The notes under the pieces: generated by a model
The model's database searches: none
The model's input: only the letters and a program-made list of their open reading frames with translations
What the model was told of the DNA's origin: nothing
From: a virus
Taxonomy: Duplodnaviria; Caudoviricetes
Strand: one strand, 5' to 3'
Virus record (IMG/VR): IMGVR_UViG_2901150838_000002
Location: 4,005 to 68,004 of that record
DNA: 64,000 bases
Shown here: positions 1 through 13,154 of the stretch, piece after piece
How positions within the stretch are numbered: position 1 is the stretch's first letter
Layout: every line of letters starts with the position of its first letter
Position numbers and translations under genes: made by a program

Positions 1-899
1 ATTGGATTGCTAGGATACTCCTGATAAAACTCCTGCAAAGTCATATCAAGCAATTTATATCTGCGCCACATCAGGAAACGTAAATTAGCCCCTTTTTCAT
101 ACAGTATCTTCTCATCTGGTTCTAAATCCTTTTCTCTGAGCCGATTCCCTTTATTGTTTGCCTTAAACCATTCTTCCGCTTCGTCATGTTCTGCTCTAAA
201 CTGTTCCTTATACAAACTTGCATAAAACGGAACAAAGAACGCTTTATATTTAGAATCGCCTTTCCATGCACTCATAAACAATTTCTGATAAAAATTAAAG
301 CCGTTACTGGTTGTTTCAATGACCAATTTACCTGTTCCTTTTGCAAGGGCTTGTTCAGCACTCAACAATTGCTTCTCTTGGTTCTGATAGAAAGCAAACT
401 CAGACAGGTGAATCATAGAATATGTTGATCCACGCCCAACATCTTTATTTCCTGCTACAACACAAGTGATACGGCTACCATTTTCTAACAACAGTTCATT
501 TCGATTATCCCGTTTAGTAGCAGGAAATACCTTTGTCCCATATTTCTCTCTAAACTGGTCTAAATCCCGATTCATCATTTTCAACTTCTCAAACAATGCC
601 ATTGAAGAATCTTGTTTGTAAGAGACAATCAGGATATTGCTATTCTCAAAACGAATGGCTTGCCATAAAGCCCTACCAAGTGCATATGTACTGAATCCAC
701 CCTGTCGGCTCTTGGATATAATCATATAGCGATTCTTTTCCAATAAGTCATTAAACTCTTGCTGCTGTGGATTAAGCAGGAAATTAATCTTATCGCCATT
801 GTTGTCTACAATATATATAAAGTTCTTCGCAAACAGTTTAAAATCGTCCATTATCAACTGTAATTTTTCTTGTTTTGTCAATTGCTTTGTTTTAGCCAC
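1..899 (-). CDS. terL: Terminase large subunit, N-terminal ATPase part (runs off window start; not in ORF track)
   Basis: GTG at 899 after GAAAGGAG; manual translation gives KSRQGGFST (Walker A), IHLSEFAF (Walker B) and LVIETTSNG (motif C). Confidence 0.88.
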   Translation of the reverse strand, partial: MAKTKQLTKQEKLQLIMDDFKLFAKNFIYIVDNNGDKINFLLNPQQQEFNDLLEKNRYMIISKSRQGGFSTYALGRALWQAIRFENSNILIVSYKQDSSMALFEKLKMMNRDLDQFREKYGTKVFPATKRDNRNELLLENGSRITCVVAGNKDVGRGSTYSMIHLSEFAFYQNQEKQLLSAEQALAKGTGKLVIETTSNGFNFYQKLFMSAWKGDSKYKAFFVPFYASLYKEQFRAEHDEAEEWFKANNKGNRLREKDLEPDEKILYEKGANLRFLMWRRYKLLDMTLQEFYQEYPSNP

Positions 900-924
900 C
901 GTTTCAACTCCTTTCAAGCAAAAC

Positions 925-954
925 AAAAAAGGCAGCCGAAACATCGACCGCCTT
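925..954 (-). terminator. Intrinsic terminator between TerS-like gene and terL
   Basis: AAGGCGGTCGA-loop-TCGGCTGCCTT followed by a U-tract on the minus strand. Confidence 0.6.
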
Positions 955-994
955 CTACCGCCGGAATAAATCGCCGGTTTAAAATTGACCCATC

Positions 995-1384
995 TTACAA
1001 CTCCAAATCGTCATCCTCTTCCTCTTGTTCAACAATATTACCAAATGCCTTTAACGCTTGCTGTTTGTGCTGTTCAATCTCTTTTTGAAGAGTAAGCAAT
1101 AATTTAACTGATTTCTCATCACCTTTAACCGCCTTATCCCTTACGGCTTCGTACATGTCAATTAAATCCTGTGCGGTTTTTGTCGCCAATACCATGCTGG
1201 CTATATTTTTAAATTCGTCAGTACGCTCCCATTTATGGAAACTGTTCATCGTCTTTTTGTTTACGGTTTTCAAAAACTCTTCCTCGGTCATGGTCTTGTT
1301 TGTGTCATACCAAAGGTTAAACCGATACTTTATGTATTGTTGCTTCGGAAACGGTAACTTGGCAATTACATCATATATGTTCAT
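995..1384 (-). CDS. HTH protein, probable terminase small subunit (phBC6A51-like)
   Basis: Immediately upstream of terL; FHKWERTDEF helix and KAVKGDEKSVKLLL oligomerisation-like segment. Confidence 0.6.
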   Translation of the reverse strand: MNIYDVIAKLPFPKQQYIKYRFNLWYDTNKTMTEEEFLKTVNKKTMNSFHKWERTDEFKNIASMVLATKTAQDLIDMYEAVRDKAVKGDEKSVKLLLTLQKEIEQHKQQALKAFGNIVEQEEEDDDLEL

Positions 1385-1617
1385 TGTGTGTCACCACCTT
1401 GATACTTTTCCAGCATTCTTTCTAAAGCAGCTCTAACATCATAATTAGGATCGTATTCAATCCCGTATTTCTCCATTAATCGCGTTAATGTTGCATTTAC
1501 ATCAATATTGGGATCATATTTGATTCCGTACTTTTCAGCCATTGCTGTAAGTTTACGGTTCGTTTCCTTTAAGCTATCTAATATCTCGTCCAATTCCTTC
1601 AAGTGTTTATTATCCAT
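1381..1617 (-). CDS. Small hypothetical protein with tandem EKYGIxYDPNxDV repeat
   Basis: ATG at 1617 with GGAGG RBS; stop overlaps next start. Confidence 0.7.
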   Translation of the reverse strand: MDNKHLKELDEILDSLKETNRKLTAMAEKYGIKYDPNIDVNATLTRLMEKYGIEYDPNYDVRAALERMLEKYQGGDTQ

Positions 1618-1728
1618 AGAGAAAATCCTCCTGAGTTTTAGTTTTAAAATAGAAAAGGTGACTACCTTGATAAATAGCCACCATGAATAACTCAATTCCC
1701 AGTATTCCTATTGGATATTAAATATGTA

Positions 1729-1765
1729 TGTACGAAATCACTATTAATACATTATTTATTATTTT
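1729..1765 (+). repeat. 37-bp perfect inverted repeat, copy 1 (partner 7936-7972)
   Basis: TGTACGAAATCACTATTAATACATTATTTATTATTTT; exact reverse complement at 7936-7972. Confidence 0.9.
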
Positions 1766-1848
1766 AGCAATCTTTTTGGGGAGGATTTTTGCTTTCAGGG
1801 AATGAGCATACAATTAGTTGAACATGTCATAAATTCCAACTAATAATT

Positions 1849-3318
1849 TTAACCAACTAAACTTTCATATTGTCGTCTAGGTAATATCTTCTTCAATTCC
1901 TTATCAGTGAAATAGAATTTCAGACAATCAGAAAAATCATTTTGCTTATTTGGTATATAATTCTCAAAATCCAAACTTGGATTGTCATTACGTTCGGCAG
2001 AATTCTGCCACACGATGTTCATTCGATATAAATTTGGCAACTTTTTCTGTAATCCTTTTCCTTTTTGTTTCCTGTTACGTTCAACTACTTCAATGACTCC
2101 AAGTTCAATTAGTTTATTTACTTGTCGCTGTACCGCTTGGTCATACAATCCAGTAACCTTCTCAATATCCTTAAACGTCATATAAAAAACGCCTTGTGCA
2201 TTAGCAAAGCGTTTAGAGTGTATCAACATAGCGTATGCAATTAGTTTCTGATTCTTCTCTGGACAATGTTCGATTATCCATTTGATTTCAGTGTAGGTTA
2301 CAGTTAAATCTTTAACATTGGCTGTCAAATTGTAATTTTTCTCATACATATTTTTTACTGTGCGGTCAATTTCTTTGTAACACTCTTCCAGCTTGGTTGT
2401 ATATGTATCTGGATTCTGCAATTCCATCCATTTATACAATTCTACAATCGTTTGTTCCTGCTCAAGTCCCATGTACTTAAAATACAATCCGACTAGGAAT
2501 ATTGAATTGTTACGGCTTCCTTGTATCTGTAATCCATTGTGTAACAAGTTAATTGCCCGATCAATCGAATAATCTTCATTTGGTTCATAACTTGGTAATG
2601 GTTTATGTTGTGCAAGTGCATCCTCTGTCTGGATTATGGTTTTCTTCTTGATTTTTTCGCCACTTTCACCAATGATATCAATGATTGTTTCAGATTTCAT
2701 TTTTTCAATGGATAATAGGTATTCTTGGCTTTCTTGTGCATCCATTACCCTTAAACCATCTTCAATCAAACAGAATCCGCAAAAGTTACCTGTTCTTTGG
2801 TGTATGCCAAGCGGTATTTTAACGCCTAATTTATCCGTTACCCGAAATTCTACTTTATTTGCTTCGTCAAAGTATTGTTCTATATCTGATTGAGATATGG
2901 CGTATTGGAAAAACTTCTCGGCGTAATCGACTCGGATTAAATCCTCAAAGAATAAATCAATATGATAACCCTTGTTACCGCTGTAACTTATGTAATAGTG
3001 ATTGATTCCTAATCCATTTAGTGTATTGGCGACATTGTATGTAATCCATTTTGCCATTTGTTTATCTTGAAAATCTACATCAAACGTCATAAACTTACTG
3101 AAAAACTTTGCAAAAGTTCCAATTGTATATTCACCTTCAAGATGTTTTTCAAATTGCCAATCTTGAAGCGGTTTTACCTTTTTACCTTTACTGTTAATGT
3201 GTCCTGCTGTATATTGCCGATATCCAATTGGCTCTTTATATTGGATTAGATAATGCTTCCGTTGAATAAAATATAAGTCATTCAGTTTGTTAATGATTAT
3301 TTTTTGGTCAATTGTCAA
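1849..3318 (-). CDS. Archaeo-eukaryotic primase (AEP/TOTE-like) replication protein with C-terminal wHTH
   Basis: FDVD acidic motif, SYSGNKGYH motif II, VKIPLG motif III, GSRNN PriCT-like segment, HTH ending PNLYRM. Confidence 0.8.
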   Translation of the reverse strand: MTIDQKIIINKLNDLYFIQRKHYLIQYKEPIGYRQYTAGHINSKGKKVKPLQDWQFEKHLEGEYTIGTFAKFFSKFMTFDVDFQDKQMAKWITYNVANTLNGLGINHYYISYSGNKGYHIDLFFEDLIRVDYAEKFFQYAISQSDIEQYFDEANKVEFRVTDKLGVKIPLGIHQRTGNFCGFCLIEDGLRVMDAQESQEYLLSIEKMKSETIIDIIGESGEKIKKKTIIQTEDALAQHKPLPSYEPNEDYSIDRAINLLHNGLQIQGSRNNSIFLVGLYFKYMGLEQEQTIVELYKWMELQNPDTYTTKLEECYKEIDRTVKNMYEKNYNLTANVKDLTVTYTEIKWIIEHCPEKNQKLIAYAMLIHSKRFANAQGVFYMTFKDIEKVTGLYDQAVQRQVNKLIELGVIEVVERNRKQKGKGLQKKLPNLYRMNIVWQNSAERNDNPSLDFENYIPNKQNDFSDCLKFYFTDKELKKILPRRQYESLVG

Positions 3319-4642: not shown

Positions 4643-5536
4643 TTATGCTTTAAGAGTGTAAACTGCTACGGCTTTCTTAGAAGCGACTTTTAGTGTACCT
4701 TCTGCCACAACATGACCGCGAACACTATCGCCAATTGCTGCGAGTGGAGCAAATTGTGCTTCACGCAGAAATGCAAGAGAAAGGTAATTTGGATCGAATA
4801 CGGTCAACTTGTCAGCAGAAGCATGGCGAGAGAGAATCAGATTAAGATTACCGTAGTTTGTGCGGATTGTATCAACAACCAGACCGAATACATTTTGTTG
4901 GGCAATGTAAGAATAAGAATCTTTATACAGTGCGTCAATTTGCTCTTTCATATCAGCATTTACCAATCCAAAATATTCACCAGTTGGTAGACCTTGATCC
5001 CACAATTTCTTCACAGTGGCTTTTACTTCGGCTTCCGTAATCTTTCCGATAGTAGCACCTGTAATCAGGTTAGCAGGATCAGCCCATCCTTCAAGCCCTT
5101 GCATTTTACGGATGAATGGAGTTGCAGAGCCATCATTTTTTACACCTTTTGTAACGGCTTTTTCCATGTTCACTTTTAATTCGATTAGACGGTCAGCCAC
5201 TTCACTAGAAAAGATATTCCCTTGACCATTTACACTAATAGCGTTTGCAGTACCAGATACGCTAACACCCTTTTGAAAGATTTCCAATACGTTAGATAAT
5301 TCTGCCCGACCTGATTGATAGAAGGTTACACTTTCGTTGCCCTCTGGTACGCTAATGTCGGCTGTTTGATCAAGTGAACGTTCTCTCCAAGTGTGAACAG
5401 TTGAATTTGTCTTTTCAGTTAAACCTTTGGACATAAGCAAGGAAACAAGTGGTGTATCCTGTACACCAATTTTCGTAATTTCCTTTGCCAAAGAAATAGA
5501 TTCACTTGCAGTTAGATTGTTAGATTTAAACATCAA
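4643..5536 (-). CDS. Major capsid protein (DUF5309 / SU10-type)
   Basis: DTPLVSLL, HTWRERSL, NVLEIFQKGVSVSGTA and GHVVAEGTLKV motifs; follows scaffold gene. Confidence 0.85.
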   Translation of the reverse strand: MMFKSNNLTASESISLAKEITKIGVQDTPLVSLLMSKGLTEKTNSTVHTWRERSLDQTADISVPEGNESVTFYQSGRAELSNVLEIFQKGVSVSGTANAISVNGQGNIFSSEVADRLIELKVNMEKAVTKGVKNDGSATPFIRKMQGLEGWADPANLITGATIGKITEAEVKATVKKLWDQGLPTGEYFGLVNADMKEQIDALYKDSYSYIAQQNVFGLVVDTIRTNYGNLNLILSRHASADKLTVFDPNYLSLAFLREAQFAPLAAIGDSVRGHVVAEGTLKVASKKAVAVYTLKA

Positions 5537-5592
5537 AAATCATCTCCTTAAAATATTTTTAATAAAATGAAAAGTAGCCATACATTAGTTGA

Positions 5593-6012
5593 CTACTTGA
5601 ACAAACTCGCCAATTTGGATTCGATCATTCCAACGACATTTCCACTCTTTTCATATTGAGAGTATTTGTCGGTTGATTTATGGTCATTTGGCTTGTATGA
5701 GTTATCAATCTTCATACCGTTAATTATTTCTTTTAGCTTCTTAACCTTCGCAGTAAGTTCATCAGTATCTTTGACTTGAAAGAAATCGGCAAATGCTTCA
5801 AGGCCTTCTGACTTAAGCGTTAATTGAATTTCCTTTTGCCACAACTCGGCTTGTTTTTGTTCTAATGCCTTTTCAGCATCAGATTTCTCGGCTGGCTTAT
5901 ACTTTGCCAATTCAGTTTGAATCGGATTCAATACTTCTGACTCCCATTTGGATTTTTCTTGTTGTAGTAATTCATTTACTTGCTCTTGTGTAAAAGTTTG
6001 ATTCTCTTCCAT
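5593..6012 (-). CDS. Capsid scaffolding protein
   Basis: TFTQEQV N-terminus, coiled coil, YKP..H C-terminus; directly before capsid gene. Confidence 0.75.
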   Translation of the reverse strand: MEENQTFTQEQVNELLQQEKSKWESEVLNPIQTELAKYKPAEKSDAEKALEQKQAELWQKEIQLTLKSEGLEAFADFFQVKDTDELTAKVKKLKEIINGMKIDNSYKPNDHKSTDKYSQYEKSGNVVGMIESKLASLFK

Positions 6013-6025
6013 TCAAATAACCTCC

Positions 6026-6250
6026 TTATGTTTTCGTTAAAGCAGAAACTTGTTTCTCCAATCGTTCAATCGCCTGAACAATTCTGTCCTGTGCCTGATT
6101 CTGCTTGTCAATTTGCTCAAGCAATCTTGATTCTCTATCCTTGGACTCTCTACGTGTATCAATAAAGAGCCAGACGAACAGGACTGCAAAGATACCTTGT
6201 GAGACAATCATTTCAATAGGTAGACCGCCTACATCCATTTGATCAATCAC
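6026..6250 (-). CDS. BhlA/UviB-family holin-like peptide
   Basis: SQGIFAVLFVWL transmembrane segment then RESKDRESRL coiled coil. Confidence 0.85.
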   Translation of the reverse strand: MIDQMDVGGLPIEMIVSQGIFAVLFVWLFIDTRRESKDRESRLLEQIDKQNQAQDRIVQAIERLEKQVSALTKT

Positions 6251-6277
6251 CTCCTTTTAATGTTAAAAAATTTTAAT

Positions 6278-6312
6278 AAAAAAAGAAAAAGATCGGGGAT
6301 GACCTTTCTCTT
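6278..6312 (-). terminator. Intrinsic terminator between the module array and the holin gene
   Basis: AGAAAGGTC-ATCCCC-GATCTTTTT followed by a long U-tract. Confidence 0.6.
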
Positions 6313-6536
6313 CTTAAAAGGGGAGAGTATTAGATATATTGAAAACTGAAATTGGAAGGGAGTAGCCCTTCATTCATCGTCTACACTTGGTAGGCAATCA
6401 ATGAAATTTACTCCATAGATATTACCTATTCTGATAAATACCAAGTTTTTCGCTACTATTCTTCCCATAATAGAAAAATCAAGGCAAATCGCTGAAACCC
6501 ATGTGGCTGTAGGAGAGAAGGCACTACTAAAAACTT

Positions 6537-6638
6537 CTAGCGTCTATATTTTTGCTTATTTTCATGCCATACGCGTCTTTTTATTTCTTTTTCGTTTTTC
6601 TTCCAGCATTCACGGCACATCTTATGGTTTTTTCCAGT
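6537..6638 (-). pseudogene. 3' gene fragment, Zn-finger C-terminus TGKNHKMCRECWKKNEKEIKRRVWHENKQKYRR*
   Basis: Manual translation; no start or RBS; paralogous to 7314-7448. Confidence 0.7.
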
Positions 6639-6907
6639 ATTACCTATTCTGATAAATAAACTTCTATTGGTGGTTATTTTTTCCCTTATAGACGATTAAC
6701 TCAGTAGCAAAAAGTCCAGTAATATCAAGGCATTAAAAAAATAAGGTATGTTCGTTTTCGCTAGTTCCCTTATAGGCGATTATCTATAATAAATATGACA
6801 TGTTGTAAACGTTGATATATCAACATTCTTTGTAAATCACTTAAAATCACATATGTTTATTTTCGTTCAACTTTTTATTTTCTCTAAATGGTATAATTAA
6901 ACGGTAT

Positions 6908-7054
6908 ACAATATTAGTATTCATAATTAGTTGCCCATATTTTTTGACAAGATTTAACGACAATATTTTTTGACATACAATATTAGTATTCATAATTAGT
7001 GGTTATATTTTATGGTACTATTTTGTGGTACACAATATTAGTATTCATAATTAG
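6908..7054. repeat. Three identical 23-bp direct repeats ACAATATTAGTATTCATAATTAG with variable spacers
   Basis: Copies at 6908-6930, 6977-6999 and 7032-7054. Confidence 0.9.
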
Positions 7055-7313
7055 CAAGAATTTTTTTACCAGTATTACCTATACTGATAAATACCATTCT
7101 AATTGGTAAAGTTTTCACCTCTTCCCTTAAAGACAATTATCTACAATTTGAAATAAGTGCTACAAATGTTGATATATCAATGATTGTTGAAAAATACCGT
7201 GTTTTCAGTATGTTCGTTCGGTCGTTATTTTTCTTTTATATCCATAATAGAAAAATCAATATGGAACGCTGAAACCCTTGGGGCTGTAGGGGAGAAGGCG
7301 GTTTTAAAAATGA

Positions 7314-7448
7314 TTAGAATTGTTTTTTTTGCTTGTCATACCAGCGCTTGAAATTTTCTCTATTTTGTTCTTTTCTATGTTCCTTCCAACACTCACGACA
7401 CATTTTATGATTCTTGCCAGTGGGCTTTATTCTTTTAGAGCAAACTTT
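7314..7448 (-). pseudogene. 3' gene fragment, Zn-finger C-terminus KVCSKRIKPTGKNHKMCRECWKEHRKEQNRENFKRWYDKQKKQF*
   Basis: Manual translation; no start or RBS. Confidence 0.7.
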
Positions 7449-7575
7449 GAATATTGTTTCTATGCTTCCCTTAGAGACCATCCTGTTTTAAATGGTCTTT
7501 TGCACAAGTGTTGATTTATCAACGTTTTTCAGGTATGTTGTATTTTTATTTATTAAACTAGTTGCTCGAAAATCC

Positions 7576-7932
7576 TTATGTATCAATGGTTTTCAAGATT
7601 TTTTCTATTTTCCTAAGATGATAATAATATTTATTTTGCTCGTTTTTAATTTTCTTAGCACAAACATTGCAATACTTATTTTTGTTATTTTTTAATCTTA
7701 TTCTATCACCGCAACCATCACACTGTATATTCTTTTCACCATATTTTCTTTGAAGATTTCTCTTTAGATTCTCAACTAGAATATCACCAAAACTTGACCA
7801 TAATGTTGTTTTGTAATTGCTTTTTTTATAGTTATATAAATATTTAACTAGCACATCAACTAATTTATAAATATCAGGTTCGATATTTATGTGTTGGAAG
7901 TAATGATACCTGTTGTACCCCATTTCGTACAA
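7576..7932 (-). pseudogene. C-terminal fragment of a YonO-like phage single-subunit RNA polymerase
   Basis: DVLVKYLY..KKSNYKTTLWSSFGDILVENLKRNL plus CxxC..KYCxxC matches my recollection of the SPbeta YonO C-terminus; no RBS upstream. Confidence 0.7.
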
Positions 7933-7935
7933 ACA

Positions 7936-7972
7936 AAAATAATAAATAATGTATTAATAGTGATTTCGTACA
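7936..7972 (-). repeat. 37-bp perfect inverted repeat, copy 2 (partner 1729-1765)
   Basis: Exact reverse complement of 1729-1765. Confidence 0.9.
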
Positions 7973-8091
7973 AACGCTCTCAGACCGTCTATATCGCCGT
8001 TTAAGGCGTTTTATATTTAGGTTAGATAAAATATACCTACTTTATATAAAAATTGCTGTATCGGGCTTATAGAGCGTCTGGTGACGTGTTT
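7972..8091. other. ~120-nt imperfect hairpin
   Basis: Nested pairings AAACG/GTGTTT, CAGAC/GTCTG, TCTATA/TATAGA, TTTTATAT/ATATAAAA, TAGGT/ACCTA. Confidence 0.6.
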
Positions 8092-8210
8092 AACATCAAT
8101 TCTATTTCAAAATTTCACACAGTAATTAATAAATTTTTGACATGTCGTGTTGGGCGGGCATGGTTAGAGTGGGCAAGGGGAAAGGGGAAAAATTTATTAT
8201 CCTGACAATG

Positions 8211-8238
8211 AAAAAGAAGCGGATTGACCGCTCCTTTG
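8211..8238 (-). terminator. Terminator of the satellite integrase operon
   Basis: AAGGAGCGGTCAATCCGCTTCTTTTT. Confidence 0.7.
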
Positions 8239-8244
8239 AATGTG

Positions 8245-8349
8245 CTATTCTGCTTGTCTATATACTTGATTCATTGCTTTAGCGTACCGTTCAAACTCAT
8301 CCGTCATCAACCATTCTTCATACATCTGGATTTCTTTTTCTTGATCCAT
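8245..8349 (-). CDS. 34-aa hypothetical peptide (MDQEKEIQMYEEWL...)
   Basis: Coupled TAATG start with GGAGG RBS; below ORF-track cutoff. Confidence 0.5.
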   Translation of the reverse strand: MDQEKEIQMYEEWLMTDEFERYAKAMNQVYRQAE

Positions 8350-8618
8350 TACGCAGCTACCTCCTGAATCAATTGATAACCAGCCGAATCAATTTCCCCA
8401 TCTTCATCATAATCAATGACGTACTTGCAAAGCCCTTCTTCAACTTTGATAATCCCGTCAATTGGATTATCACCCAAGCATACTGCATCTTTCAGATCAT
8501 CAATTGTCGCCAGATAATGTTCATATTGTTTCGCTTCCTCTTCATCTACTGTGACGAACCAATTCTCCATTGTTGGGCAGTAGAAAATGAACGCTTTTTT
8601 GATTTCAGTTTTTTGCAT
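8349..8618 (-). CDS. Acidic hypothetical protein (start MQKTEIKK)
   Basis: RBS AAGGGAGG before ATG at 8618. Confidence 0.65.
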   Translation of the reverse strand: MQKTEIKKAFIFYCPTMENWFVTVDEEEAKQYEHYLATIDDLKDAVCLGDNPIDGIIKVEEGLCKYVIDYDEDGEIDSAGYQLIQEVAA

Positions 8619-9047: not shown

Positions 9048-9968
9048 TCATATCTCTAAGGAGTTTAAAGGATTAAATTTTTCATTTTGAGAAGCCAAAG
9101 CAACACCCCAAATTGCCAAATACCTTTGAGTCATAGCAATATTCGAATGCCTAAGCATTTTTTGCAATGTGAAAACATCACAACCGTTCATCAACATCCG
9201 ATGGGCAAACGTGTGTCTAAAGGTATGAGCTGATAAGCGGCAATCAGGGAAATTCATGATTTCCTTCAACCGTTTAAAAACACATTTAACTGCATTGTCC
9301 GTAAGTTTTTTACCTTCTACATCAGTAAAAACATATTGAGGAACTTCACCAAACGTCTGCTCACAATATACCCTGTACTCACACAGTTCTTTGATTAACT
9401 TTTCCGTAATCGGAATGGAACTTTGTTGACGTTTCTTTCCGAAGACGATGATAGTGCCATTCTTCAAATTAATTTCATTCCAAGACAGATTGACCATTTC
9501 ACCTAGACGAACACCTGTCCCAAGCAAGAACACAATCATTGTATAGTCCCTATAAGCAAAGAATGATTTTTCACGCTGCTTCAATCTTCTGTAATAACCT
9601 AGCATTTGTTGAATATGCCGATCCTGAAACACTTCAATCTTAATGTCCTCTCTGCCGTAACCAATTTTCTTGGCTGGATTCTGTTTCTGTGTAATGACCT
9701 CGATCTCTTCAAGATAGTTAAAGAATATCTTGAGGACATGCAACTTACTGTTTCTGGTTGTGGCATTGTTGTTTCTTTCCTTTTGGCAGTAGATAAGATA
9801 ATTCTTAACTGTGTTCGGAGTCACATCACTAACATCGACAATTTCTTGTTTACCGCAAAAATCCTGAAATTCATTGAGGGCAGACATGTACGATTCGATT
9901 GTTTTAGGCGACAAGTTTTTAAATTCCCGATCCTCCTTGAAATCTTTAATGGCGAACTTTAATAACAC
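9048..9968 (-). CDS. Tyrosine integrase of the satellite (XerD-like, no arm domain)
   Basis: TGVRLGE, GK, HTFRHT, LRHS and QRY catalytic R-K-H-R-H-Y set; probable GTG start at 9968. Confidence 0.92.
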   Translation of the reverse strand: MLLKFAIKDFKEDREFKNLSPKTIESYMSALNEFQDFCGKQEIVDVSDVTPNTVKNYLIYCQKERNNNATTRNSKLHVLKIFFNYLEEIEVITQKQNPAKKIGYGREDIKIEVFQDRHIQQMLGYYRRLKQREKSFFAYRDYTMIVFLLGTGVRLGEMVNLSWNEINLKNGTIIVFGKKRQQSSIPITEKLIKELCEYRVYCEQTFGEVPQYVFTDVEGKKLTDNAVKCVFKRLKEIMNFPDCRLSAHTFRHTFAHRMLMNGCDVFTLQKMLRHSNIAMTQRYLAIWGVALASQNEKFNPLNSLEI

Positions 9969-10099
9969 GAAAAAGCACACTCCCTTCCAGTTTTCTGATA
10001 CTGAAAGAAAGTGTGCTTCCTATTTGAAAGCGTGTTTGTATGCGACCACTTATTTTTCAAAGTGTTAAAAAGTCGCTCAAACCCTTGATATATCAATTA

Positions 10100-10144
10100 T
10101 GGTGATCCGGACTGGGTTCGAACCAGCGACCCCCACCCTGTCAA
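10100..10144 (-). other. att core: 3' half of tRNA-Val(GAC), anticodon loop to CCA
   Basis: Minus strand TTGACAG GGTGG GGGTC GCTGG TTCGAAC CCAGT CCGGATC ACCA; 5' half of the tRNA absent. Confidence 0.9.
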
Positions 10145-10263
10145 TTTGATGTCTGACGTTTCTTTCTATTTCTGACCTTATCAAAAATGGCTTTATTATG
10201 CTGATTTCAACAAATTAATTCTAAGTATTATTTCCTTATTAATCCGTTCATTTCTGCATTTGC

Positions 10264-10462: not shown

Positions 10463-11236
10463 TTATTTCTTCTGATCCTGATAAACCTCCATTAGGAACC
10501 TAGCCAGGGTTACCCCAGCATTGACTACCAATCGAGCATGATACGGTTTGAGTCCACTCTCATTCTTTACTTTCCCATGCCCAGTTCCATAAGCATTGCG
10601 TAGTTCTGTGATACCTATAACTATTTGTCCTAAATTATTTAGAGTACGTTTAACCGTGTCTGTGGCTTTATTTGCCTGCGCTACATCGTCAGGAATAAGC
10701 TTCAGGTGGCTTTGTACTAATTTTATTAATTCTGGCATCTCGAGTTTATCCAAATTTTCAGCCTTACCACTAAGTATTGTTTTCAGTACTGTTTCAATCA
10801 TCTCTTTTGTTGTACCAAGTGCGAGTTCAGGGTCTTCTTCAAGTGAGTTATATATTCTGCTAATTTGTTTTGTTACATCAAAGGAATCAGTATCCAGTGG
10901 ATTTTCATCTAAAATATGACTTGGTTCACTATCATCAAAAAGTTCTTTGTAAAGATCTGGTCTTCTTGCTTGAAGCCATCCCTCCAGATTAACTTTTTCA
11001 GCAATAAAAACTAATTTCTCAGTATTTCTTCCAATTCGTTTGAGTACTTCAATAACATTTTGCGTATAATCAGGATCTCCCCAATTTAGACTTCGTATCA
11101 GTCTATTATGTCCCTCGATTGCATCAACTTCGTCTATCTCATAAGCTAGCTTCGTCCAATCACTCGCATCAAATTTAGCCTCGATAATAAGTGAAAGCGC
11201 ATAAATTAATCGATTTTTATTTTCTGTTTTTAGCAT
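10463..11236 (-). CDS. Abortive infection family protein (AbiJ-type N-terminus + Abi_C/HEPN)
   Basis: LRNAYGTGHG RxxxxH motif and HARLVVNA C-terminus. Confidence 0.8.
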   Translation of the reverse strand: MLKTENKNRLIYALSLIIEAKFDASDWTKLAYEIDEVDAIEGHNRLIRSLNWGDPDYTQNVIEVLKRIGRNTEKLVFIAEKVNLEGWLQARRPDLYKELFDDSEPSHILDENPLDTDSFDVTKQISRIYNSLEEDPELALGTTKEMIETVLKTILSGKAENLDKLEMPELIKLVQSHLKLIPDDVAQANKATDTVKRTLNNLGQIVIGITELRNAYGTGHGKVKNESGLKPYHARLVVNAGVTLARFLMEVYQDQKK

Positions 11237-11269
11237 TTTTTGTTCCCCTTATCACCATAGTCGCTTAAG

Positions 11270-11992
11270 TTAAACTGCTTTTGTATTTCTGCATTTTGGA
11301 TAACTGGAGCATCCGTAAAATTCACCTTTCGCACCTTTTCGCAAAATCATTTTTTCTCCACATCTTTCACAGAGCATTTCCTTCTGAGGTAATTGTGCTA
11401 TTACTTGTTTAGGATTTGGCTTAGTAGTGGGGTTCATTTGCAGAATCATCTCAATGAGCTTATCGCGGTTTATGAGTCTCACGCTATTTGATGATGCAAG
11501 ATTACGTGCAGCATCAGTATAATCACGATTACTTACAACCCATGCTTCGTGAGCTTTATAGTGAGCAATCGATGCCTGCGCCTGTTGAACAGCTTCGATG
11601 CCAACATTCTTACTATATCGTTTCGCCTGAACTACAATTTTCTTGCCGTCTTTTTGAATAATCAGATCGGCCCCATAATCACCTGCCGCTCTGGTTACTT
11701 CTACCTTATATCCTTGGTTCCTAAATAATAGTCCTAGATAGTGTTCAAACTGTCTCCCATCCATTTGGTCAATATCTTTTATTCCGGAACGTTTAAGTCT
11801 CTCCTGCGCTTTGGCGTCAAGGATGAACCTTATCCCCATTGCTACCCCTAGCAACACTCCAAATGTTACCCCTGCCATTATTAGTGATCCAGTCTCTAAA
11901 TAAATATAGCCCGAAAGTGCAATTACGAGCAGAGCTGCTAAATTAATCAATGAATCTTCTAAGCTGTTTGCCTTTTTTCTTCTTCGTGCCAT
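11270..11992 (-). CDS. Membrane-anchored Mrr-family restriction endonuclease with topoisomerase Zn-ribbon
   Basis: Two N-terminal TMs; DYGADL...VQAKRY; CERCG...GCSSYPKC. Confidence 0.85.
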   Translation of the reverse strand: MARRRKKANSLEDSLINLAALLVIALSGYIYLETGSLIMAGVTFGVLLGVAMGIRFILDAKAQERLKRSGIKDIDQMDGRQFEHYLGLLFRNQGYKVEVTRAAGDYGADLIIQKDGKKIVVQAKRYSKNVGIEAVQQAQASIAHYKAHEAWVVSNRDYTDAARNLASSNSVRLINRDKLIEMILQMNPTTKPNPKQVIAQLPQKEMLCERCGEKMILRKGAKGEFYGCSSYPKCRNTKAV

Positions 11993-12143
11993 TTCTCCTA
12001 CCTCCTAATTATTCAAATTAAAGGATATAGGACAAATTGCACCCAAACAAGGGTAACCTAATGACACAATTCGACAAAAACCCACCTCCTAAGAAGTGGG
12101 GAGTATTCGCTTATAGCTACCCGTACATATTCGGGAGATAATT

Positions 12144-13154
12144 TTAGAATGGGAAATCAAAATCATCATTCTTTTCTCTTAATTCAGCTGGTTCATAAAT
12201 AAAGATACTGGGCTTACCTATCTTTTCTAAGCTATTATTATCCCATTCGAATAAAACAACATTGGCGCCATAAGCGCGGGTTGAATTGTAGCAAATACCA
12301 CTATAACCAGCTAGCCTTGCACAATCGGCAATAAACTTTGTTATAAAGTATTGCGGCTTCCATGTGCTTTTTCGATCTGGAACCTTTTGTTCTAACAATC
12401 CTGATGATAATATGGCAGCCAATACTGCACTTGTTGATGAAGGACCTATATAATCAAAATCGCTCCTTAAATCAAGCAAGTTTTCTATCTCCTTCACTTT
12501 AAACTTTTGAGTCCAGATTAGCTGAGACTTATTTTCCTCAAGCACAACTTCATTAACTGCAGTTTCCTCACTTTTGGCCAAATAAAGAACACTTTGTCCG
12601 GTATGATGATATCTGCCATCTCCCGCTATTCCCGTTCCAGGTGCATCAAGGTCGGAACTGTCAAACACTCTATTATCTTTTACACTTCGTGCTCTATACC
12701 ATTCGCCATATATTTTTGTTGATGGTACTTTCTTTGATAAAATTTCTTTATGTAATTTCTTTCCCAATGTCTTGGTGAGAGCCAGTGAAGGGTATAATTG
12801 GAGGTGTTCTTGCAACTCAGTGATTTGATTTCCATACTTTTTTATCGCTGTTTTAAGGTGATGCTTGGTTTGGATTACGTATCGATCTTCAGTCCCAATT
12901 GTGTCATACCGATCAAAACCGGAACATCCGCAGTTGGGACAGGTGATATGTTCAGAAATGGCATCCCTATATCTTTCTGGCACATTTAAATTTTCATAAA
13001 TTTCCTCAAGAGTGGTTTTTTCGCCTAAAATCCAAACGTAACTTCCTCCATCATAAGGCTGACATGTTGGACAATATTTTACTTTCGCTTGTGTACGAAC
13101 CCTGTGTCGTTCTGCCGTTTTGTTTAAATCGGGAAGAAAATCATAGTAATCCAT
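12144..13154 (-). CDS. RES-domain (NAD+-degrading) protein with N-terminal Zn-binding region
   Basis: WYRAR, GRYH...LYLA, E and GICYNS RES motifs; two CxxC pairs. Confidence 0.85.
   Translation of the reverse strand: MDYYDFLPDLNKTAERHRVRTQAKVKYCPTCQPYDGGSYVWILGEKTTLEEIYENLNVPERYRDAISEHITCPNCGCSGFDRYDTIGTEDRYVIQTKHHLKTAIKKYGNQITELQEHLQLYPSLALTKTLGKKLHKEILSKKVPSTKIYGEWYRARSVKDNRVFDSSDLDAPGTGIAGDGRYHHTGQSVLYLAKSEETAVNEVVLEENKSQLIWTQKFKVKEIENLLDLRSDFDYIGPSSTSAVLAAILSSGLLEQKVPDRKSTWKPQYFITKFIADCARLAGYSGICYNSTRAYGANVVLFEWDNNSLEKIGKPSIFIYEPAELREKNDDFDFPF

What the first reader, a model, noticed from the sequence alone, without database searches (positions are those of the whole stretch)
6462..7932. 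Array of captured helper-phage gene-end/promoter modules upstream of the satellite's structural operon
Seen: six head-to-tail modules, all oriented toward holin-scaffold-capsid. Each ends (minus strand) in TCTCTAAGGGAA, TATTATGGATA, TCTTTAAGGGAA, CCTATAAGGGAA, TCTATAAGGGAA or TATTATGGGAA. Each has an upstream palindrome (GTTGATATATCAAC-type or CCCTTG-N-TAGGG-type) at 35-36 or 44-46 bp, i.e. two classes one helical turn apart. Four also have AACATA(C) further upstream. Three modules begin with start-less 3' ends of Zn-finger genes: one YonO-like and two divergent TGKNHKMCRECW variants. Known: SPbeta YonO is a single-subunit RNAP that transcribes late genes lying downstream of it. Inference: the satellite has collected the late-promoter regions of several different helper phages, so that any of their RNA polymerases turns on satellite packaging. 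This would act as a helper-sensing memory that widens helper range, and it may also titrate the helper RNAP. I know of no description of such an array.
Basis: partly seen in the sequence, partly recalled or inferred. Interest (0 to 1): 0.92.

Follow-up and report, generated by a model that had tools for sequence, protein, structure and literature searches.

The report
Captured phage-polymerase promoter array in satellite
A small capsid-making phage satellite carries, in front of its packaging genes, six copies of the DNA that normally follows the private RNA polymerase gene (yonO) of large SPbeta-type phages, which probably lets that polymerase switch the satellite on.

Summary
All six motifs sit at the stated places. 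Four are the four best matches in the whole 3.88-Mb genome to a matrix built from phage sequences.

The modules are captured phage DNA. Three begin with start-less 3' ends of yonO genes. Their non-coding parts match the yonO-to-HU-gene spacer of different prophages: G017 for module M1, G061 and G023 for M2 and M6. The SPbeta core motif matches M4 and M5.

In phages the motif lies 40-200 nt after the yonO stop in 45 of 61 loci. It occurs once per phage genome.

Related satellites carry one to five strong copies, all co-oriented with their capsid gene. Module content differs between strains.

That these are YonO promoters is inferred, not shown. I found no RNA data and could not place the published SPbeta start site.

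The six modules fall into three sequence types, not six. The island is a roughly 13-kb element resembling capsid-forming PICIs (cf-PICIs).

Earlier notes of this scan describe similar logic on other DNA: T7 islands and a nut-site array.

The parts
9048..9980 (-). Tyrosine integrase of the island. It lies next to a 45-nt tRNA 3' fragment (att) at about 10100-10145.
   Evidence: Pfam Phage_integrase E 4e-33 and phrog_1. tRNA fragment and copies elsewhere in the genome.
8213..8237 (-). Terminator-like hairpin that closes the integrase-side genes before the array.
   Evidence: It is the only terminator-like site in 6000-8400.
7936..7975 (.). One copy of a 40-nt inverted repeat. The partner is at 1726-1765.
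   Evidence: 98% over 40 nt. Conserved in G001.
7576..7932 (-). Remnant of the 3' end of a yonO polymerase gene (unit A). It is open here as 118 aa, but frameshifted in relatives.
   Evidence: phrog_8308 positions 780-845 of 847. tblastn to yonO of 24 phage records. Frameshift in G001. One extra base at 7820 in contigs of runs X2, X4 and X7 (table 4).
7461..7575 (-). Module M1: spacer with GTTGATAAATCAAC, then type Ia motif GGATGGTCTCTAAGGGAAG (GGG at 7470-7468).
   Evidence: Matrix score 21.1. 74% over 148 nt to the G017 yonO-HU spacer. Nearest phage site is that of G017, 4 differences in 22.
7314..7440 (-). Second yonO 3'-end remnant (..KPTGKNHKMCRECWKEHRKEQ..stop).
   Evidence: Matches the yonO C-termini of G061 (KPSGKNHKMCRECWKD..) and G017.
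7236..7313 (-). Module M2: spacer CCCTACAGCCCCAAGGGTTTCAGCG, then type II motif TTGATTTTTCTATTATGGATA.
   Evidence: Same layout after yonO in G061 and G023. 76% over 199 nt to G061 together with the remnant.
7110..7235 (-). Module M3: ATTGATATATCAAC, then type Ib motif GATAATTGTCTTTAAGGGAAG. No gene remnant.
   Evidence: Matrix score 19.8.
7073..7096 (-). Leader copy 1 (GGTATTTATCAGTATAGGTAATA), just downstream of M3.
   Evidence: Repeat family D6. The element occurs only in satellites, in none of the phage loci held.
6885..7054 (-). Three tandem repeats of 55-69 nt inside the array. Absent from G001.
   Evidence: Repeat families D2 and D5. No G001 match.
6755..6879 (-). Module M4: GTTGATATATCAAC, then type Ib motif GATAATCGCCTATAAGGGAAC.
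   Evidence: Matrix score 21.7. The core is the same as SPbetaL2 GAGATAATCGCCATAAGGGAG after yonO, apart from one extra T.
6670..6754 (-). Module M5: CCTTGATATTACTGG, then type Ib motif GTTAATCGTCTATAAGGGAAA.
   Evidence: Matrix score 22.8, the best in the genome. The layout is that of SPBc2 CCCTTGGTGCTACTGGG..GATAATCGTCATAAGGGAG.
6638..6661 (-). Leader copy 2. It runs straight into the third yonO remnant.
6537..6637 (-). Third yonO 3'-end remnant (..NTGKNHKMCRECWKKNEKEIKRRVWHENKQKYRR stop).
   Evidence: 97% identical copy in G001.
6455..6536 (-). Module M6: TCCTACAGCCACATGGGTTTCAGCG, then type II motif TTGATTTTTCTATTATGGGAAG.
   Evidence: 73% over 191 nt to G061 together with the remnant. 102-nt repeat D1 shared with M2 at 74%.
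6420..6443 (-). Leader copy 3, heading the transcript into the holin gene.
   Evidence: Contigs of runs X4 and X7 join 6456 directly to 7077, which is recombination between leader copies (table 5).
4643..6250 (-). BhlA-type holin (6026-6250), scaffold (5593-6012) and SU10-type major capsid protein (4643-5536). These are the first genes downstream of the array.
   Evidence: Pfam Holin_BhlA E 8e-9 and SU10_MCP E 7.5e-77; PHROG scaffold.
1..3318 (-). Rest of the same-strand operon inside the window: AEP primase/replication protein (1849-3318), a 104-aa ORF, a TerS-like 129-aa ORF (995-1384) and the 5' part of TerL (about 1-890). The rest of TerL and an SPP1-type portal gene lie before the window start.

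Best explanation
The window holds one end of a roughly 13-kb integrative phage satellite of the capsid-forming kind. It encodes an integrase, an AEP primase, a scaffold, a capsid protein, a TerS-like ORF, TerL and a portal. No tail genes were seen.

Between a terminator-like hairpin and its 10-kb same-strand operon lies an array of six modules. These were copied by recombination from the DNA that follows the yonO gene in large SPbeta-like phages. yonO encodes a single-subunit, two-barrel RNA polymerase.

Each module ends in the motif that, in those phages, occurs once per genome. There it sits between yonO and the HU gene that opens the late gene block. The motif has two forms:
- type I: TAAT-N3-C-T-x-T-A/T-A-GGGAA;
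- type II: TCTATTATGG(G/A)(A/T)A.

Most likely this motif is the late promoter read by the phage's own YonO polymerase, with initiation at GGGA. When a YonO phage infects or is induced, its polymerase would start at the cognate module. It would then transcribe the satellite's holin, capsid, replication and packaging genes at the helper's late stage.

Three sequence types, two of them still attached to distinct yonO gene ends, suggest service by more than one polymerase lineage.

What is shown:
- the homology and the phage origin of the modules;
- uniqueness of the motif in phage genomes;
- multiplicity and orientation in satellites;
- turnover of modules between strains.

What is inferred:
- that the motif is a promoter;
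- that YonO reads it;
- that the array broadens helper range.
For: Origin of the modules:
- Full-length yonO genes in G017 (857 aa), G023 (933 aa) and G061 end in GKNHKMC(R/S)(E/D)C. Each is followed by the same spacer types as the modules, and then by an HU gene.
- The identities favour capture over duplication. One G001 module is 94.7% identical over 245 nt to the G017 stretch, while its array paralogues match that stretch at 82% and 76%. Units B and C of the window are each closer to G061 (76% and 73%) than to each other (70%).

Motif in phages:
- 45 of 61 non-redundant IMG/VR yonO loci have TA?AGGG[AG] 40-200 nt after the stop. Shuffles give a mean of 3.4 and a maximum of 10.
- Flanking positions that were not used for selection are also conserved.
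- There is one strong hit in the 136-kb G017 prophage contig (19.9, next best 14.5). There is one in SPBc2 1-100 kb (17.3, next best 14.6).
- The type II motif has one exact copy in the 166.6-kb G061 record.
- In G017 the motif opens a co-directional block of HU, further genes, TerL and portal.

Link to YonO:
- Forrest et al. 2017 (PMC5467207, passages) show that YonO transcribes the SPbeta late genes as one operon. They state that the promoter sequence is still to be determined.
- The conserved non-coding RNA block upstream of yonK starts with TTAGGGAA in the 3 SPbeta-like loci that hold this 8-mer, of 11 loci scanned.

Satellite side:
- The own genome has no yonO, only the remnant.
- There is no excess of sigma-70-like sites in 6000-8400 (9 found against 11.4 expected), and none coincides with a motif. 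A terminator-like hairpin stands upstream.
- I scanned 24 of the 25 capsid relatives. They give 17 hits of score 18 or more, in 8 loci. All 17 are on the capsid strand and 16 lie upstream of the capsid gene.
- The metagenomic relative L161 has three hits between integrase and holin.
- Module order and number differ in G001 and in contigs of four other runs.
- The gene ends are dead. The 118-aa frame is frameshifted in G001 and in X2, X4 and X7. It is start-less, and interrupted by a stop just upstream, in G029.
Against: - No transcript data exist for any of these elements. No RNA holder was listed.
- The one mapped YonO start in SPbeta is described as lying upstream of yonK and a non-coding RNA, not upstream of yonN. 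The consensus motif lies upstream of yonN. The yonK-side site shares only the proximal half (CAC-TTAGGGAA) and scores under 12 with my matrix.
- I could not convert genome position 2225998 to the phage record, so the link to the mapped start is unproven.
- 16 of 61 phage loci lack the strict core.
- 16 of 24 capsid relatives have no hit of 18 or more. The closest relative, L122, has a 402-aa ORF in that slot instead.
- M3 to M5 are similar to each other, and no phage donor for type Ib was found. Of 44 metagenome matches, 0 lie beside a yonO end.
- L161 combines Ia and Ib, which weakens the idea that one type equals one helper.
- The matrix core was chosen with a regular expression, so only the flanks are independent evidence.
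Confidence: 0.65

Rival explanations
1. The conserved motif is a cis-element of YonO phages, but not the polymerase's promoter. It could be, for example, the site of a phage late activator or anti-terminator that works with the host polymerase, or a processing or stabilising signal at the head of the late transcript. The satellite would still use it to couple to the helper.
For: The published SPbeta start is described upstream of yonK, not at the yonO-yonN motif. Upstream TTGATAT-type palindromes look like binding sites for a dimeric protein. Forrest et al. leave open whether YonO needs extra factors.
Against: SPbeta late genes are silent without yonO. The motif is single-copy and sits exactly at the head of the late block, next to the polymerase gene, in distant phages. 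No significant RNA fold was found: z from -1.24 to +1.78 in 6 folds. No Rfam family matched.
Confidence: 0.15
2. The array is a pile of non-functional scars. Repeated recombination between satellite and YonO phages left gene ends and spacers that happen to sit upstream of the operon.
For: The gene ends are dead. One G001 module has lost its GGGAA. Arrays vary freely between strains. The closest capsid relative lacks the array.
Against: All 17 strong hits in relatives are co-oriented with the capsid gene, and 16 lie upstream of it. Satellites whose capsid proteins are only 51-79% identical keep the motif without any yonO remnant. The motif core is better conserved than the rest of each module.
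Confidence: 0.08
3. The six modules arose by duplication and divergence of one ancestral module inside the satellite, without repeated capture.
For: M3, M4 and M5 differ at 3-4 of 22 core positions. The leader is repeated three times. Joints in other strains lie at the leader copies, as unequal crossing-over would give.
Against: Units B and C are each closer to a phage locus than to each other. One G001 module is 94.7% identical to the G017 prophage, against 82% and 76% for its paralogues. Types I and II correspond to two kinds of phage spacer.
Confidence: 0.05
4. The Zn-ribbon gene ends are the functional part. They would be made as small proteins that mimic the C-terminal domain of YonO and interfere with, or redirect, the helper polymerase.
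For: The 118-aa frame is open in this window. It matches a PHROG of 214-aa proteins (phrog_37506, E 3e-24). A 55-aa frame over the second remnant is open here, and by my reading of the sequence it is also open in G001.
Against: No ribosome-binding site precedes either frame. The 118-aa frame is frameshifted in G001 and carries the same extra base in X2, X4 and X7. The G029 copy is start-less, with a stop just upstream. The other two remnants keep only the second CxxC knuckle.
Confidence: 0.05

Closest known systems
Late operon start of phage SPbeta read by YonO (Forrest et al. 2017, PMC5467207; passages read)
   Same: The modules are homologous to the DNA just after yonO. The core GATAATCG(C/T)C-ATAAGGGAG of SPbeta phages recurs in M4 and M5. 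The direction is the same, toward structural genes.
   Different: In the phage the motif is single-copy and heads the phage's own late genes. Here six copies of three types head a satellite operon in a genome without yonO. The paper gives no promoter sequence, and its mapped start could not be placed by me.
T7 islands: enterobacterial islands with an integrase, tandem T7-like promoters and no polymerase gene (Chen and Schneider 2006, Nucleic Acids Res 34:1133). Look-up and search failed.
   Same: A chromosomal island carries several promoters for a phage-encoded polymerase that it lacks itself. This implies switching on by an infecting phage.
   Different: The polymerase is unrelated: T7-type single-subunit against the YonO two-barrel type. 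As far as I recall, those islands have no gene-end remnants and no mixture of promoter classes. The present island also makes its own capsid.
Capsid-forming PICIs (cf-PICIs; recalled from the literature, no paper read here)
   Same: An integrative island with its own capsid, scaffold, portal and terminase genes and no tail genes.
   Different: No recognisable Stl/AlpA-type switch. Head-tail connector genes were not identified. Control appears to rest on captured polymerase promoters. The relationship to described cf-PICI families was not tested.
P4 satellite late promoters activated by the P2 helper's Ogr (recalled), and SGI1 promoters responding to the helper plasmid's AcaCD (PMC7826253, abstract in the search listing only)
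   Same: The parasite times its morphogenesis or transfer genes by carrying cis-sites for the helper's late transcription factor.
   Different: Those sites recruit an activator of the host polymerase. They are not visibly copied together with neighbouring helper gene ends, and they are not arrays of several helper types.

Membership tests
yonO-downstream late-start element of YonO phages | Lies within about 40-200 nt 3' of the yonO stop and upstream of the HU gene and late block | tested here: met
   Phages: 45 of 61 loci, plus G017, G023, G061, SPBc2, SPbetaL2, Perkons and D-1873. Window: 3 of 6 modules still follow a yonO 3' remnant.
yonO-downstream late-start element of YonO phages | Core T-A/T-A-GGG-A/G with TAAT-N3-C upstream (type I), or TCTATTATGG(G/A)(A/T)A (type II) | tested here: met
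   Four sites score 19.8-22.8 against a phage-derived matrix. The two type II sites match G061 and G023.
yonO-downstream late-start element of YonO phages | Single copy per genome | tested here: not met
   This is true of the phages. The window has six copies. That is the point of difference: it is a satellite array, not a phage locus.
yonO-downstream late-start element of YonO phages | Transcription starts there and depends on YonO | not testable with these tools
   No RNA run was listed. The paper's start coordinate could not be mapped. Its supplements are closed.
cf-PICI-like capsid-forming satellite | Integrase next to an att site | tested here: met
   The integrase at 9048-9980 abuts a 45-nt tRNA 3' fragment. 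In G001 the same element abuts the complete tRNA.
cf-PICI-like capsid-forming satellite | Own capsid, scaffold, portal and terminase genes | tested here: met
   SU10_MCP E 7.5e-77, PHROG scaffold, SPP1_portal E 2.7e-68, TerL frame with Terminase_6C, TerS-like ORF.
cf-PICI-like capsid-forming satellite | No tail genes; head-tail adaptor and connector genes present | tested here: inconclusive
   No tail or connector family was hit among the ORFs searched. The contig ends about 1.4 kb past the last homology with G001, and several ORFs have no family.
cf-PICI-like capsid-forming satellite | Induced and mobilised by a helper phage | not testable with these tools
   Needs infection experiments.
T7 islands | Integrase-bearing island with tandem phage-polymerase promoters and no polymerase gene | tested here: met
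   Array. No full yonO in the genome.
T7 islands | Promoters of the T7 group | tested here: not met
   The motifs derive from yonO phages and do not have the T7-type consensus (the T7 consensus itself is recalled). The resemblance is in logic only.

The most novel reading that the evidence does not exclude
The array is a growing library of helper-polymerase promoters. Each encounter with a new YonO phage can add a cassette (yonO end, spacer, promoter) by recombination at the satellite-specific leader GGTATTTATCAGAATAGGTAATA. This leader flanks cassettes in this window, in G001 and in G029.

The satellite would thereby record past helpers and respond to several polymerase specificities. With six strong sites against the phage's single one, it would also draw the helper's polymerase away from the helper's late genes.
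Probability: 0.2. Interest if true: 0.9.

Novelty: new variant of a known kind. Interest (0 to 1): 0.8.

Why it matters
There are two reasons.

First, the promoter of the YonO family of single-chain, two-barrel RNA polymerases has been open since 2017. This comparison yields a concrete candidate of about 20 nt with two classes. It is single-copy in phages and multiplied in their parasites, and it can be tested directly with purified YonO or reporter fusions.

Second, it shows a way for a satellite to sense its helper without a repressor-antirepressor pair. The satellite copies the helper's own late start region, gene end included. Several versions are kept side by side and reshuffled between strains.

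My three targeted literature searches found no description of satellites of YonO phages or of such arrays. The nearest precedent I know is the T7 islands, which use an unrelated polymerase.

Tried and rejected
Packaging-site idea. I considered that the modules are captured pac sites. In SPbeta the genome opening point lies between yonR and yonP, which is upstream of yonO (bioRxiv 10.1101/2021.11.22.469490, passages; PMC8270828, passage). The satellite also has its own terminase genes. Rejected.

RNA element idea. Rfam gave nothing in the array at E up to 0.1. Six folds gave z from -1.24 to +1.78. Rejected as the main reading.

Expression. No RNA holder was listed for window 6251-8350. This says nothing either way.

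Mapping of the published start site 2225998. I looked for B. subtilis 168 coordinates in four papers (which was a term error, 53, 73, 74) and found none. The supplements of PMC5467207 (primer table, Supplementary Fig. 2) are closed and may settle it.

Donor search:
- blastn of 6250-8350 against 50,697 phage records hit only the yonO remnant, in 2 records.
- The peptide-derived pattern found 1 stretch in genome contigs and 3 in viral contigs.
- The type Ib pattern found 44 metagenome stretches. Of these, 0 carry a yonO end and 2 are satellites. The other 42 are probably chance.
- No donor phage for type Ib was found.

Helper relationship. The satellite's head and packaging proteins have no tblastn match in the G017 prophage contig or in SPBc2 1-100 kb. 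The heads are therefore not helper-derived.

Literature. One search (YonO alone) returned unrelated papers. One search (T7 islands) returned nothing, and one search showed that the paper is not held.

Structure, complex, atlas and large protein searches were not used. They would not bear on a non-coding element.
Full report
**What is there**

On the minus strand, window 6455-7932 lies between a terminator-like hairpin (8237-8213) and a BhlA-type holin gene (6026-6250). The holin gene is followed by a scaffold gene and an SU10-type capsid gene.

Repeat analysis recovers the shared blocks:
- the TAAGGGAA family (D3, D7);
- the TTGATATATCAAC palindromes (D4);
- a 102-nt block shared by modules 2 and 6 at 74% (D1);
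- a 24-nt element repeated three times just downstream of modules 3, 5 and 6 (D6).

**The gene ends**

The 118-aa frame at 7576-7932 matches the last 66 positions of the 847-position profile phrog_8308 (E 2.5e-12). By tblastn it matches the 3' end of yonO in 24 phage records. These are 22 Bacillus records (SPbeta relatives), Psychrobacillus phage Perkons and Clostridium phage D-1873.

The genome holding the window has no other yonO sequence.

The two TGKNHKMCRECW pieces match the C-termini of full-length yonO genes found in the same bacterial family:
- G017: 857 aa, ending ..GKNHKMCRDCWKDHRR..;
- G023: 933 aa, ending ..TGKNHKMCSECNKEYRR..;
- G061, an IMG/VR provirus: ending ..KPSGKNHKMCRECWKD...

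These pieces are remnants, not genes. The 118-aa frame is frameshifted in an A-run in the sister element of G001. Contigs of runs X2, X4 and X7 carry the same extra base at 7820 (table 4). The G029 copy is start-less, with a stop just upstream.

**The non-coding parts are phage DNA too**

In every full-length locus the yonO stop is followed by a short spacer and then an HU-type gene.
- In G017 the spacer holds CCCTTGATACATAAGG, CATTGATAAATTAAGG and GGACGGTCTCTAAGGGAAAC. That is the layout of module M1.
- In G061 the spacer reads CCCCTACAGCCACAAGGATTTCAGCG..CCTTGATTTTTCTATTATGGATAG. That is the layout of M2 and M6. G023 has a variant ending TTTTTGTATATGGAAG.
- SPbeta phages have GCCTTACTCCCCCAAGG..ACAGCG, followed by CCCTTG(G/A)TGC(T/G)ACTGG and GAGATAATCG(C/T)CATAAGGGAG. 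The last two parts match the palindrome and core of M5 and M4. Perkons and D-1873 show the same motif between polymerase and HU genes.

The identities favour capture over internal duplication:
- One module of the G001 array is 94.7% identical over 245 nt to the G017 yonO end plus spacer. Its paralogues in the same array match that stretch at 82% and 76%.
- The window's unit B (second remnant plus M2) and unit C (third remnant plus M6) match G061 at 76% over 199 nt and 73% over 191 nt. They match each other at only 70% over 184 nt.

**The motif in phages**

A search of IMG/VR with the last 199 residues of G017 YonO returned 80 loci.
- 61 are non-redundant and have at least 250 nt downstream. 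Of these, 45 carry TA?AGGG[AG] 40-200 nt after the stop. Shuffles give a mean of 3.4 and a maximum of 10.
- Several of the 16 exceptions carry near-variants at the same distance from a downstream CTAAT.TACA block.
- A matrix from 40 distinct sites also shows information at positions that were not used for selection: TAAT at -13 to -10 and C at -6.

Scanning with this matrix gives one strong hit in the 136-kb G017 prophage contig (19.9, next best 14.5). It gives one in SPBc2 1-100 kb (17.3, next best 14.6). Both lie right after yonO. The type II motif has one exact copy in the 166.6-kb G061 record.

So the phages have one such site each. It sits at the head of the co-directional block that runs through HU into terminase and portal genes.

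**The motif in the satellite and its relatives**

In the 3,878,741-base genome the four type I sites of the array are the four best hits (19.8-22.8, within 785 bp). Two other hits reach 18.

- Homology with G001 runs from window 10144 to about 2.8 kb before the window start.
- It includes a TerS-like ORF, TerL and an SPP1-type portal gene.
- It begins at a 45-nt tRNA fragment, which in G001 is the complete tRNA.
- Its head and packaging proteins have no match in the G017 prophage contig or in SPBc2 1-100 kb.

The capsid protein finds 25 IMG/VR loci, on contigs of 4-34 kb. I scanned 24 of them.
- There are 17 hits of score 18 or more, in 8 loci.
- All 17 lie on the capsid strand, and 16 lie upstream of the capsid gene.
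- Only two of these loci also keep yonO remnants.

A metagenomic relative, L161 (capsid 57% identical), has three sites between integrase and holin. The closest relative, L122 (capsid 91%), has a 402-aa ORF of no Pfam family in this slot instead.

The leader element TTATCAG(A/T)AT(A/G)GG follows promoters in several satellites. It occurs in none of the phage loci held.

**Turnover**

G001 has about nine modules in another order, one of them with the GGGAA deleted. Contigs from four runs of other organisms hold parts of the array joined differently. For example, 6456 is joined to 7077 in X4 and X7, which removes M4 to M6 by recombination between leader copies (table 5).

**How it most likely works**

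Forrest et al. (PMC5467207, passages) showed that YonO transcribes the SPbeta late genes as one operon. [quoted passage not shown] They state that the promoter sequence remains to be determined.

A motif that is single-copy, adjacent to the polymerase gene, at the head of the late block and conserved from Bacillus to Clostridium phages is the obvious candidate.

The satellite places it where no sigma-70-like site stands out (9 found against 11.4 expected, none at a motif). I therefore read the array as helper-polymerase promoters that switch on the satellite's operon late in helper development (confidence 0.65).

**Caveats**

- I could not map the published start.
- In SPbeta the consensus motif precedes yonN. 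The yonK-side conserved block begins with CAC-TTAGGGAA, which shares only the proximal half.
- There is no RNA evidence.
- M3 to M5 may be duplicates of one type.
- No phage donor for type Ib was found.
- L161 mixes types Ia and Ib.

**Comparison with what is known**

The logic resembles three systems:
- helper-activated promoters of P4 (recalled);
- SGI1 (abstract in a search listing only).

The gene set resembles cf-PICIs (recalled). The differences are the polymerase family, the visible capture of helper gene ends, the mixture of promoter types and the strain-to-strain reshuffling.

Three targeted searches found no description of satellites of YonO phages or of a YonO promoter consensus. 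A fourth search returned unrelated papers.

**Verdict**

This is a new variant of a known kind. It also provides a directly testable candidate for the unknown YonO promoter.

Noticed in passing
window 1726-1765 (+) and 7936-7975 (-): A 40-nt inverted repeat (98% over 40 nt) brackets the 6.2-kb stretch from the array to the primase gene. Both copies are kept at 97.5% in G001, although the elements are otherwise 85-92% alike. It contains the 13-mer ATTTCGTACAAAC, which also recurs 41 nt away. Possible roles are a replication-protein site, an operator or an inversion site.
   Followed up: partly
window 6885-7054: Three tandem units of 55-69 nt, each ending in the same 23-nt block, sit between leader copy 1 and module M4. 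They are absent from G001 and from the contigs of the four runs laid.
   Followed up: partly
window 6420-6443, 6638-6661, 7073-7096; also L129, L130, L131 and G029 (L006): The leader GGTATTTATCAG(A/T)ATAGGTAATA follows promoters in satellites whose capsid proteins are only 69-70% identical to this one. It is found in no phage locus. New yonO remnants start right after it, so it may be the place where modules are inserted or exchanged.
   Followed up: partly
L122:2199-3407: The closest capsid relative (91%) carries a 402-aa ORF of no Pfam family, with an HTH-like stretch, exactly where this element has the yonO remnant and promoter array. This suggests that the control cassette of the late operon is exchangeable.
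   Followed up: partly
window about 10100-10145; G000:C8 about 68250-68330; G000:C16 about 4332: A 45-nt tRNA 3' fragment marks the satellite's integrase end. The complete tRNA lies 54 kb further on, just past the window end, and a third partial copy is on contig C16. Several islands therefore seem to be stacked at one tRNA gene. The 54 kb include AbiJ, Mrr-like and RES-domain genes at window 10463-13154.
   Followed up: partly
L020:5275-6010, L001:6790-7550, L063 about 4820 onward: The non-coding RNA block of about 700 nt between yonN and yonK of SPbeta phages has no Rfam match in L001. It begins with GGGAA(G/T)G(T/A)AGATGCGTCTCCCTTCCC, which can form a 5'-terminal hairpin. SPBc2 has about 540 extra nt between yonN and this block.
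   Followed up: partly
L018:7630-7650 and window 7480-7500: Just upstream of TCTAAGGGAA, G017 has ACCGT..ACGGT and module M1 has ACCAT..ATGGT. This is a short hairpin with a change on both sides. It is not seen in the other types.
   Followed up: no
G000:C8:142-1335 and 1454-1642 (before the window start): Past the portal gene lie a 397-aa protein (zinc ribbon, TPR, DUF5780) and a 62-aa MqsA-like zinc-ribbon ORF. These may be satellite cargo. Homology with G001 ends here.
   Followed up: no
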